Shown piece by piece: positions 2,041 to 60,026 of a DNA stretch of 64,000 bases. The first letter of the stretch is position 1. Each line of letters opens with the position of its first letter. The notes beneath the pieces were generated by a model. It was not told where the DNA came from and ran no database searches. It was given only the letters and a program-made list of their open reading frames with translations. The translations under genes and the position numbers were made by a program. Source of the stretch: Eledone cirrhosa (taxonomy: Eukaryota); assembly GCA_964016885.1 (NCBI GenBank), contig OZ024741.1, positions 83,390,001-83,454,000 on the forward strand, written 5' to 3'.

Positions 2041-2435
2041 CATATTCATCTTTCTATGACATTCTGATGAAGTCCTTGCGTCCGAAACTTTAGGTCTCTT
2101 TTCGTAATATATGAAGCGCAAAACTAATATATTTATTCCTTTACTGAGTCGTTTGCTGTGTTTTGCTATTTGTCGTTACACTCACATATATATCTCTCTC
2201 TCTATATATATATGTTTATATTTATATATATATATATAAACACATATATATATAGAGAGATATATATGTGAGGGTGTGTCTGTGTGTATGAATGTGTGGT
2301 CAAACGACAAATAGAAAAACTCAGCAAACGACTCAGTAAAGGAATAAATATATTAGTTTTGCGCTTCATATAATAGGAAAGGAGTCCTAAAGTTTCGGAC
2401 ATAAGGCCTTCATCAGAATGTCACAGAAAGATGGT
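2041..2435. repeat. Inverted pair of PLE-type 3' ends, each with a hammerhead motif, facing a TA-rich tract
   Basis: 2041-2185 is the reverse complement of ~2295-2435. CTGATGA-A-stem-GAAAC at 2064-2088 (+) and 2392-2416 (-). Confidence 0.75.
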
Positions 2436-2712
2436 GAGTGAGCAGTGGCAGAAAACTTATTTGAGAATAAGCTAGGTCTATTCAGATTGCCATCTCTGAT
2501 ATATATATATATATATATATATATATATATATATATATATACCTATTTGCGTATGTATATATATATATATATATATACATATATGTGTGCGTGTGTGTGT
2601 GGGCGTGTGTGCGTGTGTGTGTGTGTGTTTGCATGCGTGTATTTGCGTGTTAAGTATTTCCATAGGCAAGATAAAGGAAAGAAGAGTGCTCTATGTATAG
2701 TATAGAGCTATT

Positions 2713-2846
2713 TAATTACGTAATATAATTACACAATAAACAGCACAAAATAATTATTTCATTACCAAAGTATCCGGAAGGGTCGTCTAGTTTCCTGAAA
2801 CCTTTGGTAATGGAATAATTATATTATGTTTTTTATTACGTAATTA
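2713..2846. repeat. Short imperfect fold-back next to (TA)n
   Basis: TAATTACGTAAT...TAATTATTTCATTACCAAAG pairs with CTTTGGTAATGGAATAATTA...ATTACGTAATTA. Confidence 0.55.
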
Positions 2847-3783
2847 TATATATATATATATATATATGTGTGTGTGTGTGTTTGTGTGTTTGTGTATGTG
2901 CATAATAGTTTTCACAGCATTTATTTAGTTAAAGTGCAAACTTTTATCGTTAGTGAGTCAGATTATATGAATTATGCGTATTTTAATTGGATGTGTATAA
3001 TACCTCTCAGTGCTTTGGTTTCATTTCCCCTGCGCCAATAAATAAACCAATAAATACTATCGTAGGATTTGTTAAACCATAAGATTATGTTATACCGTAA
3101 AATCTTCCCGGTTGGCATGATAAGGAATTTCGATTACAACTATGTAATTTTCGTTTACCCAGCTTCATTCAGATGTCCCGGCTCGATCCAAGGTTATTGT
3201 AAATGACACTAGTCAAACCTATCACACAGTGGGATCAATCCTGTTAATTTGTATTGCAAAGTAAACATGTTAACTATTGGAACCGAGGCGCACGGGCGCA
3301 TTCACACTCAAAAACACAATATTGTATATATATATATATATATATATATATATATATATATATATATATATATAAGTGGAATGAATACAAATGATTATAT
3401 ACCGTTAAAACATGTTTATATAGAAAAATGCACCTACGTACGTTTCTCCCCAAACGGTTTTCTCAGGGGTATAGAAAACAAAAAAAAAAGATCAGTACGT
3501 GACCCAGGAGGAGTTTTAAGGTTAAATTTACATCAGAGTTAATACTTCGTTCAAGCACATGTGTTGATTTTGCCACAAAGCAAGGGGAGTAACTCTGGCC
3601 GGATTTAAATAATCGTCCCCCACTGCTTTTTACCCGTTCACACGATGGTGTTTTGCCTTATCTTGTGGGTGCTGCTTTACTATTTCCGGTTCAAGCCGGG
3701 TGTGAGATGCATATTTGGTTCACAGATGTTTATTTGCGCCGCCTTCCCACTGGAGTGTTCTGGTTTGGGCAGGGGGACCAAGT

Positions 3784-58224: not shown

Positions 58225-58313
58225 AATTCCTGAAGATTTGTAGAGCGAGGGAGAGATACCTCGTAGTTGTACTGATATGGCCCACCGCTTTACATTGAAA
58301 CATACGTAAGATT
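58225..58313 (+). ncRNA. Hammerhead motif with long stem II
   Basis: CTGAAGA-TTTGTAGAGCG...CGCTTTACATT-GAAA-CATACG-TA. Confidence 0.6.
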
Positions 58314-58467
58314 AAATATGTTTTAAGTATAACTTGGTTATGCCCTCTCTCTATTAGTAAATATCTCTCTATATATATACGTGTGTTTCTGTGTGTTTAT
58401 ATATATGTATGTGCAGTGTGTGTATATATGTATATATACACGTGTGTGCGGATGTGAGTATATAAGT

Positions 58468-58740
58468 GGAGGTACGTGGCCTAGTGGTAAGGTTGTTGGA
58501 CTTACGATCATAATGTGGGTTCGATTCCTGTGTTGCGTGTTGTGTTCTAGAGAAAAACGCTTCATTTCACGTTCCTCCAATATAGTCAGCTGAAAATGAG
58601 AAACAGCACTAGCTGGGGATTTAACCATGCGATGGACTGGCGTCTGTCCAGGGGGGCAGTTTTGTACTCTCAGTCGCTTCACGGCATGAAGCCGCGATAA
58701 GCACCAGCCATATGAGCCTTCTGGCTTCAGACAGACTTTA
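58468..58740 (+). mobile_element. tRNA-derived SINE family 2 (CORE-like and V-like segments)
   Basis: A-box TGGCCTAGTGG, B-box GGTTCGATTCC; GCGATGGACTGGCGTCTGTCCAGGGG resembles the V-SINE domain as recalled. Confidence 0.75.
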
Positions 58741-60026
58741 GACTTTCGATATTTATATGTATCATATATATATATATATATATATATATATATATATATA
58801 TATATATATATATATATATATATATATATATATATACATACATATATACATATATACTCACACATACACACTCAGGCAGACGAAGTAGAAGGAGGAGGAG
58901 ATATTTAAAATATTTAGTGATCAACTACTATATCGATCGACAAACTACTTCCGTATCATTTCTTTGGCTGTAATTGAATCGTTGATTACTAAAGTTTTTA
59001 ATCTTTCTTGCTAATTAAACCGGATGATGTTGCCGGACGTCTTACGACACAATTTAATGACATACGCTAGCCATTGAAATACGTATTTTGTATTTAGGGA
59101 ACATGAAAGTTATATTTATATTCCAAACTTTTTTTCCCATTGTTTGTTTTTTTTCTTTTTCTTCCCGTTCTTTCATTTTATCATTCTTTATCTTTCTATG
59201 TTATCTTCTATTTCTACCCCAATCTCCTTATGAAGAACTAGTGTTCCAAACGTTGAGAAACTGTTCTTGCTATTTCAAGCGTTAAACCAATATATTTCTT
59301 CAATGTACTGTCTCGTTTACTTTGTTATTTCTGTTTAATTGTTTATACATACATTCAAACACACACACACACACGCACACACACAGACACACACACATAT
59401 ATATATAAATATGTAACTATATATATATGAGTATATAGGTACCTATATATATAAATACGTGTGTAGACACGTGTGTATAGACACGTGTGTATGTCTGTTT
59501 CTGTGTGTGTATGTGTGTGTGTGTAATGTTTCTGTCACAACACCACCTAACAAAAAAGAAGATGGTTAACCGCAACTATAATTATTCAGCCACAAAGCAC
59601 AAGGCAAGCCACGAGATCCTCATAACACAGAAATACATCAATAGCGAATTTAAAACCGAAAGCCTCATGAAAAGCCCCACCTACACTGCGAGGGAAAACT
59701 TCTTCAAGCCTCAATTGCCATTGGTATTCGTCTTCCCTCAATGGCGTTCGCTACCAGACAAGTTAGAACCATACATTCTGCAGATCTATTAATCATAAAA
59801 CACAAAACCATCGTTTTATGTGGCTGTTGTACACACACCCAACACACACACATTCACACATGGACACACATGCTCTCGCTCACACATACACAGGCACACA
59901 TGCACGCATCTATAAATCTCTCTCTCTCTCTCTCTCTCTCTCTCTCTCTCTCTCTCTCTCTCTCTCTCTCTCTTTCTCTGTATATATACATACATGCATA
60001 CATACATACATACATACATACATACA

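What the first reader, a model, noticed from the sequence alone, without database searches (positions are those of the whole stretch)
2041..59260. Hammerhead-ribozyme ecosystem: roughly 25-30 HHR-like motifs in 64 kb, tied to (TA)n-targeting Penelope-like elements
Seen: motifs of the form YTGANRA-stem-GAAA-stem-NTH at about 2064, 2400, 3450, 6925, 7300, 8370, 11620, 12020, 17300, 18170, 19210, 19580/19820, 20480/21470, 21630/24970, 31900, 32540, 32930, 33850/33960, 35670, 37710, 42220, 44730, 46170/46280, 54710/55270, 58270 and 59240. They come from more than 12 unrelated sequence families, nearly all near a (TA)n tract. Established: PLE pseudo-LTRs carry minimal type I HHRs with palindromic stem III thought to act as dimers. 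Inference: the density and structural diversity (core covariants, very long stem II, ORF-less carriers) point to a largely uncatalogued ribozyme-retroelement radiation in this genome.
Basis: partly seen in the sequence, partly recalled or inferred. Interest (0 to 1): 0.75.

Follow-up and report, generated by a model that had tools for sequence, protein, structure and literature searches.

The report
Genome saturated with Penelope hammerhead ribozymes
Most of the flagged sites are real hammerhead motifs (predicted self-cutting RNAs) at the ends of Penelope-type jumping genes and of small non-coding repeats that likely borrow their enzyme; the pairing is known, but this animal genome likely holds about 300,000 such motifs, some with altered cores and long arms not found in the papers read.

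Summary
Mostly confirmed. 28 of the 32 listed coordinates are type I hammerhead motifs or decayed copies of families that carry one; 4 stay unverified. They are about 19 insertions of about 14 families, because 9 pairs are twin ends of one insertion. About 9 sites have an intact canonical core. A scored scan gives 14 hits versus 0.35 in shuffles. The window is not special: 70 pre-chosen 10-kb stretches give 79 hits versus 0.5, about 3.4e5 motifs genome-wide (2.2-4.6e5). Five window families are 3' ends of Hydra-clade Penelope-like elements; four are ORF-less units of 270-655 nt (retrozyme-like). Hydra clade, (TA)n targeting, an octopus member with a hammerhead, U3-A8 cores and retrozymes are published. 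Not found in the papers read: this scale, family-fixed U4A (two families) and A9U cores, and long stem II arms with compensatory changes. Two-armed insertions pair one long with one short 3' end (68 of 73), and 5' breakpoints do not pile up at the cleavage site. Cleavage is untested; one key paper could not be read. The scan has reported the same system on other DNA of this genome.

The parts
2047..2177 (+). Copy of a ~270-nt ORF-less element with fixed ends (family M) carrying a decayed minimal hammerhead
2303..2433 (-). Inverted (convergent) second copy of family M, decayed hammerhead
3375..7128 (-). Near full-length Hydra-clade PLE (broken ORF 3823-6644) with direct pseudo-LTRs 3375-3502 and 6855-6970, each with a decayed hammerhead (U3-A8 in intact relatives)
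7191..8479 (.). Two-armed Hydra insertion; hammerheads near 7300 (minus) and 8321-8421 (plus) with family-fixed A9U core and 82-nt stem II; endonuclease remnant 8121-8291 (minus)
11600..11640 (-). Decayed family M hammerhead, left half only (approximate bounds)
12008..12043 (+). Minimal hammerhead with 3-bp stem I; family with 8 relatives, several with U4C (approximate bounds)
18149..18193 (-). Hammerhead, G12 mutated in this copy; same superfamily as 19199 and 44713
19199..19237 (+). Intact hammerhead; 3' end of a young Hydra PLE with a 3' UTR of about 1.5 kb
19610..19789 (.). Divergent twin hammerheads (19610-19647 minus, 19752-19789 plus), U3-A8 core, 10-nt stem III insert
20401..21544 (.). 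Two-armed insertion with decayed U3-A8 hammerheads (near 20480 minus; 21451-21487 plus)
21569..25106 (.). Two-armed Hydra PLE: broken ORF 22907-24607 (minus), decayed hammerhead near 21630 (minus), intact U3-A8 hammerhead with long stem III at 24927-25010 (plus)
31695..32370 (-). More-than-unit copy of a ~530-nt ORF-less unit (direct repeat 31695-31828 / 32233-32366); hammerhead 31872-31943 with 51-nt covarying stem II, A6 mutated here
32479..32556 (+). Decayed copy of the 33946 family
33692..34051 (.). Short fold-back insertion between two (TA)n tracts; U3-A8 hammerheads near 33850 (minus, stem I mutated) and 33946-33972 (plus, intact)
35316..35882 (+). More-than-unit copy of a 492-nt ORF-less unit; hammerhead 35645-35707 with family-fixed U4A core and long stem III
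39881..42246 (+). 5'-truncated Hydra PLE (ORF part 39881-40952) with intact hammerhead 42191-42246, 1.24 kb downstream (1.27 kb in L161)
44713..44761 (+). Hammerhead, G8 mutated in this copy
45380..45413 (-).
46151..46301 (.). Divergent twin hammerheads (46151-46195 minus, intact; 46257-46301 plus, A9 mutated)
54281..55582 (.). Two-armed insertion of a ~655-nt ORF-less unit; the minus arm exceeds one unit; hammerheads near 54710 (minus, decayed) and 55238-55305 (plus, 49-nt stem II)
59145..59357 (+). Decayed family M copy (approximate left bound)

Best explanation
The motifs are type I hammerheads at the 3' ends of many Hydra-clade Penelope-like retrotransposons and of small ORF-less repeats that are likely copied by the same enzymes into (TA)n tracts. 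Shown: sense position downstream of the ORF, a (TA)n tract just 3', two fixed 3' ends per family, back-to-back arms with one long and one short end, and more-than-unit copies of ORF-less units. Inferred mechanism: the element's endonuclease cuts both strands of a TA tract; each DNA end primes reverse transcription at one of two fixed sites downstream of the hammerhead; copying runs through the intact hammerhead and usually stops early, so hammerheads pile up far faster than ORFs. The hammerhead likely cuts slowly (as a dimer in tandem transcripts for short palindromic stem III; with a weakened core for some long-stem III families) to release unit-length RNA, which is likely rejoined into circles that serve as templates.
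For: Hydra diagnosis: window ORFs show the RWK, DKT and CxCx5C motifs that define the clade in Craig 2021, and a profile from 58 full-length relatives (DKT in 49, CxCx5C in 55) covers them. ORF upstream on the same strand for families 3450, 8321, 24927 and 42191 and 19199 (9 of 20 loci, about 1.5 kb). (TA)n within 250 nt 3' for 63 of 79 unbiased hits versus 27% null. Two 3' ends per family; long+short pairing in 68 of 73 two-armed insertions of four coding families, 86 of 104 over all families tested. ORF-less tandem units of 311-595 nt elsewhere and more-than-unit copies in the window. Structure under selection: family 31900, 9 sequences, 8 of 21 pairs with changes on both sides, 4 of them in the distal part of the long stem II, 0 of 500 shuffles as high; RNAalifold recovers stems I and II unaided. 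Published support: two reverse-transcription start sites and both-strand cleavage by an Anolis PLE; dimer cleavage of minimal hammerheads; circular retrozyme RNAs.
Against: No cleavage, expression or circle was observed here. 5' breakpoints are not enriched at the cleavage site (4 of 84 within 3 nt, 7.3 expected), which fits rejoined or uncut templates equally. In the Anolis element, hammerhead mutants did not affect insertion in vitro and no reads ended at the site. In the 492-nt ORF-less family 11 of 25 pairs were long+long (tandem read-through may be miscalled as long). Family M has a fixed 5' end, a minimal hammerhead and one convergent pair, so its driver may be another PLE clade. RNAalifold pairs the 5' core with stem III instead of forming stem III. 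The covariation test has only 9 related sequences and does not correct for ancestry. Four or five window families were not traced to an ORF or a unit.
Confidence: 0.72

Rival explanations
1. The hammerhead fold is kept mainly as a protein-binding or template-positioning structure for the PLE enzyme; cutting is minor or dispensable, which lets core changes such as U4A and A9U become fixed.
For: Two high-copy families carry U4A in essentially all copies and one carries A9U; no breakpoint pile-up at the cleavage site; hammerhead mutants did not impair insertion in vitro; long stem II arms covary.
Against: G5, A6, G12-A14, the 3-8 pair and a non-G at position 17 stay in place across some 50 clusters, although the scanner selects for them; 3-8 covaries as a pair (11 of 79 unbiased hits are U3-A8); retrozyme hammerheads of other animals do cleave.
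Confidence: 0.2
2. Inverted arms arise by self-priming or fold-back on an antisense or DNA template, or the short fold-backs are MITE-like DNA elements, with hammerheads as passengers.
For: Self-priming on an antisense template was proposed for head-to-head PLE structures (Arkhipova 2013); several insertions are near-perfect fold-backs (33692-34051).
Against: Arms end at two different fixed points, one per arm, in 68 of 73 cases, and 5' junctions vary widely; a fold-back or MITE would give matching ends.
Confidence: 0.06
3. The motifs are chance matches in AT-rich, palindrome-rich DNA amplified by repeats.
For: Three scanner hits in the window are probably chance (29107, 40432, 55410), and 4 listed sites are unverified.
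Against: 14 versus 0.35 and 79 versus 0.5 shuffled, 1 reversed; fixed position and strand relative to ORFs and (TA)n; compensatory changes.
Confidence: 0.02

Closest known systems
Hydra clade of EN+ Penelope-like elements, including Hydra-1_Obim of Octopus bimaculoides (Craig et al. 2021, PMC8557442; abstract, section 11, passages, supplement part 2 and supplement hits read)
   Same: RWK, DKT and CxCx5C motifs, C-terminal endonuclease, (TA)n insertion, type I hammerhead near the 3' end, inverted 5'-truncated partner copy, one-sided tail.
   Different: One octopus Hydra family is listed there versus at least nine deep lineages in two clades here (30-51% endonuclease identity). Published Hydra hammerheads have short stem II (up to about 26 nt) and canonical cores; here stem II reaches 49-115 nt, with U4A and A9U families. 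Tails are about 80-160 nt rather than 30-40; 3' UTRs reach 1.5 kb.
Minimal/variant PLE hammerheads (Cervera and de la Pena 2014, PMC4209133; parts 1-2 of 4 read; Lunse et al. RNA Biol 14:1499, title only seen, not held)
   Same: Massive dispersed occurrence, many consensus families, U3-A8 covariant, extra base after position 9, palindromic stem III, opposite-strand pairs 100-700 bp apart.
   Different: Counts there are about 2,000-9,000 per genome (other descriptors); U4A, A9U and very long stem II are not mentioned in the parts read.
Metazoan non-LTR retrozymes (Cervera and de la Pena 2020, PMC7229834, passages read; Li, Clavereau and Pollet 2026, 10.64898/2026.07.22.740005, part 1 of 5 and passages read)
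   Same: ORF-less units of a few hundred bases with a type I hammerhead, tandem arrays, proposed PLE mobilisation; up to 120,000 copies in axolotl.
   Different: Units here reach 655 nt, are mostly dispersed in (TA)n with the two-armed, two-ended PLE footprint; circles and cleavage were shown there, not here. No octopus in the 2026 text (0 occurrences).
Poseidon element of Anolis in vitro (Frangieh et al. 2024, PMC11167929; passages read)
   Same: Two internal reverse-transcription start sites matching the tail; both DNA strands cut and extended.
   Different: Different clade; that work does not report the long+short pairing of arms quantified here in the passages read.

Membership tests
Type I hammerhead ribozyme | Core boxes (positions 3-9, 12-15.1, 16.1-17) in type I order | tested here: met
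   Intact at about 9 listed sites; 71 of 79 unbiased hits have C3-G8 or U3-A8 with U4 (59 + 11 + 1 with A6 changed), 7 are U4A, 1 U4C
Type I hammerhead ribozyme | Three stems around the core, supported by covariation | tested here: met
   Family 31900: 94.7% of cells paired, 8 pairs changed on both sides in stems I and II; stem III invariant, so uninformative
Type I hammerhead ribozyme | Self-cleavage after position 17 | not testable with these tools
   Needs in vitro assay; breakpoint proxy showed no enrichment
Type I hammerhead ribozyme | Match to a curated Rfam hammerhead model | tested here: inconclusive
   None among the best 150 of 251 matches shown; 101 lower rows not seen
Hydra-clade PLE | RWK, DKT and CxCx5C motifs; endonuclease C-terminal to RT | tested here: met
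   Window ORFs at 3823-6644, 22907-24607, 28597-30538, 39881-40952; motifs partly decayed in some copies
Hydra-clade PLE | Insertion into (TA)n | tested here: met
   63 of 79 versus 27% null; 27 of 32 versus 28%
Hydra-clade PLE | Pseudo-LTR, inverted 5'-truncated copy, one-sided tail | tested here: met
   3375-3502 / 6855-6970
Hydra-clade PLE | Placement in an RT phylogeny with named Hydra references | not tested
   The tree used the endonuclease region and unnamed relatives only; likeness to the printed Hydra-1_Obim protein was judged by eye
Non-LTR retrozyme | ORF-less unit with one hammerhead, in tandem or more-than-unit copies | tested here: met
   Families 31900, 35645, 55238. Not met for family M (fixed ends, no tandem seen); not shown for family 33946
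Non-LTR retrozyme | Expressed as circular RNA | not testable with these tools
   Needs RNA data or Northern blot
Naiad PLE with permuted hammerhead (earlier scan notes) | N-terminal endonuclease and non-type I strand order | not tested
   My scanner reads type I order only; could bear on the 4 unverified sites

The most novel reading that the evidence does not exclude
This octopus-like genome holds the largest hammerhead population yet described (over 3e5 motifs, dozens of families), in which Hydra PLEs and their retrozyme passengers are copied from rejoined RNA circles by priming from both ends of a cut TA tract, and in which ribozyme speed is tuned: dimer-gated palindromes in most families, natural slow cores (U4A twice independently, A9U) where stem III can fold alone, and long stem II arms selected as docking scaffolds for the element's protein.
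Probability: 0.3. Interest if true: 0.75.

Novelty: new variant of a known kind. Interest (0 to 1): 0.5.

Why it matters
What hammerheads do for Penelope-like elements, and how their inverted and tandem insertions form, are open questions in the papers read. This genome offers dozens of young, high-copy families with natural core variants, mapped start sites and ORF-less passengers, so both questions become directly testable. About one intact-looking motif per 9 kb also raises the question of how host transcripts tolerate them, and a recent octopus repeat annotation does not mention ribozymes (0 occurrences). The system itself is a known kind; the advance is scale and variants.

Tried and rejected
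Rfam scan: the visible rows are microsatellite-driven miRNA matches. Strict descriptor: finds only 2 sites. Pfam recognised only 4 of 25 ORF pieces, none of the Hydra ones. My first reading that all ORF-less carriers are truncated coding elements was dropped after three families proved to be short repeating units. A first profile search lost plus-strand hits and gave a misleading 'no ORF upstream' table (redone); a 900-1400 nt search range also missed the 1.5-kb UTR of family 19199 until. The endonuclease hit upstream of one 35645-family copy (L135) was rejected as a neighbour: a TA tract lies between and it belongs to lineage 3450. The query hit a SINE-like repeat, not the intended family. 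Window-specific clustering rejected. Cleavage footprint in 5' breakpoints: none (81 had duplicates). Sequencing runs: no RNA holder listed; nothing was laid. End classes for families 33946 and 55238 were mis-set and are uninformative. Papers not held: Lunse et al. and two ids from memory, so tolerance of U4 and A9 changes rests on recall plus the U4C remark in Perreault 2011. A uniform per-site table of mismatches and stem energies was not produced; per-site verdicts come.
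Full report
Setting. The window is AT-rich with 91 (TA)n tracts and lies in a 3.0-Gb genome of 1,796 contigs. It looks octopus-like: its ORFs resemble, by eye, the Hydra-1_Obim protein printed in the Craig 2021 supplement. The species was not determined.

Observation. A strict type I descriptor finds 2 motifs versus 0.17 in 30 shuffles. 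A scored descriptor that allows one core mismatch, bulges at the base of stem II and stem II up to 150 nt finds 14 hits at score 9.5 and 11 at 10.5, versus 0.35 and 0.1 in 20 local dinucleotide shuffles and 0 in the reversed window. Checking all 32 coordinates against relatives: about 9 have an intact canonical or U3-A8 core, 3 belong to families with fixed variant cores, 16 are decayed copies of hammerhead-bearing families, and 4 (17300, 32930, 37710, 58270) have no relatives among the fetched loci and stay unverified. Nine pairs are two ends of one insertion, leaving about 19 supported insertions of about 14 families. A (TA)n tract lies within 300 nt on the 3' side of 27 of 32 sites, against 28% for random positions.

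Scale. In 70 stretches of 10 kb picked at round-number positions on 20 contigs, the same scan gives 79 hits at 10.5 versus 0.5 shuffled and 1 reversed; 33 of 70 stretches have at least one. That is 7.2 per 64 kb, so the window (11) is not an outlier (P about 0.17), and it extrapolates to 3.4e5 motifs (bootstrap 2.2-4.6e5). The sample is only roughly proportional to contig length, tandem arrays inflate it locally, and the scanner under-scores families 24927, 8321 and M and misses decayed copies. The unbiased hits fall into 23 clusters (Chao1 36); all loci together give 51 clusters, a few spurious. The largest published counts I saw are up to 120,000 retrozymes in axolotl, over 6,000 motifs in a coral and about 9,000 in Xenopus, all with other descriptors.

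Carriers. Window ORFs show RWK, DKT and CxCx5C motifs with a C-terminal endonuclease, the diagnosis of the Hydra clade, which is published as (TA)n-inserted, hammerhead-bearing and present in Octopus bimaculoides. A profile from 58 full-length relatives maps them. Families 3450, 8321, 24927 and 42191 have the endonuclease 0.3-1.3 kb upstream on the same strand; family 19199, which looks ORF-less here, has it about 1.5 kb upstream in 9 of 20 longer copies. Only 4 of 79 unbiased hits have such an ORF within 1.4 kb, so most copies are truncated or non-coding. An endonuclease tree of 24 host and 40 unnamed outside rows puts host rows in two clades (19 rows, support 97/95; 5 rows plus one outsider, 100/97) with 30-51% identity between lineages: a deep radiation, with the caveat of long branches and outgroups chosen by likeness to one lineage. 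Other families are truly ORF-less: units of 492 nt (35645), about 530 nt (31900) and about 655 nt (55238) occur as more-than-unit copies in the window, family 31900 also as tandem arrays elsewhere, with no Hydra ORF upstream in 20 loci (35645) and 15 loci (55238) and no long frame in the 31900 units. Family M is an old ~270-nt element with fixed 5' and 3' ends and a minimal hammerhead. Family 33946 showed no ORF upstream in 20 loci. Families 12020, 19752, 20480 and 46195 were not traced.

Variants. U3-A8 occurs in 11 of 79 unbiased hits and is published. U4A is fixed in family 35645 (19 of 21 readable copies keep A4, none has U4; copies chosen by likeness to the window) and in a second, coding family with no visible likeness in its stems (21 of 21 readable copies), of which the window holds right-half remnants at 19972-20094 and 35268-35319. 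Family 8321 lacks A9 in all 29 readable copies, 28 with U, and has an 82-nt stem II. Both U4A families have a long stem III; by hand, 2 of 11 long-stem III clusters versus 0 of 40 short ones are U4A (P about 0.04, post hoc). The 35645 monomer folds into the full three-way junction, whereas 19199, 46195 and 33946 do not form stem III as monomers. Stem II is 50 nt or longer in 13 of 79 unbiased hits, against about 26 nt at most in the published Hydra table. In family 31900 the long arm covaries: 8 of 21 pairs change on both sides, one pair shows four pair types, 0 of 500 shuffles reach the score, and slid controls collapse; RNAalifold finds stems I and II unaided but mispairs the core. Searches for U4A with hammerhead gave 0 papers and none relevant; octopus with hammerhead ribozyme gave 5 papers, of the 4 listed only Craig 2021 relevant. 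Lunse et al. could not be read, so novelty of the variants is provisional.

Mechanism. Each family ends at two fixed points 3' of the hammerhead. In two-armed insertions of four coding families, 68 of 73 pair one long with one short end; over all families tested 86 of 104, the exceptions mostly in tandem family 35645. A tail on one of the inverted arms is published qualitatively, and an Anolis PLE cuts and extends both strands from two internal start sites. The simplest reading is priming from both ends of a cut TA tract (inferred). Since copying starts downstream of the hammerhead, every intact genomic motif came from an RNA whose scissile bond was whole, uncut or rejoined (logic). 5' breakpoints show no excess at the cleavage site (4 of 84 within 3 nt, 7.3 expected). 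More-than-unit copies fit circles or tandem transcripts; circles are shown for retrozymes of other animals, not here. I favour slow, gated cleavage with rejoining; a scaffold-only role is the main rival.

Verdict. A real, strongly non-random and genome-wide system of a known kind: Hydra-clade PLEs plus retrozyme-like passengers. New, as far as the papers read go, are the scale, the fixed U4A and A9U cores, the long covarying arms and the counted long+short rule. Earlier notes of this scan on other DNA of this genome reach the same census, variants and insertion model; I tested these points here rather than relying on them.

Noticed in passing
window 25209-26189: Element between two (TA)n tracts with 149-nt direct repeats 832 nt apart (95%) and a SINE-like insert; looks like a more-than-unit copy but no type I hammerhead was scored.
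   Followed up: partly
window 46895-47923 and 52785-54149: Long inverted repeats (320 and 163 nt) flanking microsatellite blocks; no hammerhead hit, almost no relatives among fetched loci.
   Followed up: partly
window 15085-15275, 17097-17202, 25476-25671, 38299-38650, 46608-46729, 51228-51418, 55649-55833: A ~190-nt SINE-like repeat in many copies, also inserted inside PLE 3' UTRs.
   Followed up: no
window 26922-27811 (minus) and 30606-31732 (minus): Fragments of non-Hydra PLEs (GIY-YIG Pfam hit for the first); the second is joined to a Hydra copy at an inversion (30308-30377 / 30554-30623). No hammerhead assigned.
   Followed up: no
window 28219-29652 / 39889-41336: Two 89%-identical copies of one Hydra family in opposite orientation; both give a false-positive motif antisense inside the ORF (29107, 40432).
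   Followed up: yes
window 19972-20094 and 35268-35319: Right-half remnants of a second, coding U4A family; 7 scored copies in 700 kb of unbiased sequence.
   Followed up: yes
L055, L181, L175, L137, L051, L010: Tandem arrays of hammerhead-bearing units of 311, 482, 528, 525, 595 and 176 nt.
   Followed up: partly
L057, L159, L160: Family with a 99-115-nt stem II; an endonuclease ORF lies upstream in L160.
   Followed up: partly
window 548-1401 (minus): Transposase-like ORF pieces with no Pfam match; family not determined.
   Followed up: no
window 42374-43732 (minus); 48348-50588 (plus); 14430-14965: RTE-like LINE reverse transcriptase (RVT_1), other LINE fragments, and a 536-nt (TAG)n tract.
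   Followed up: no
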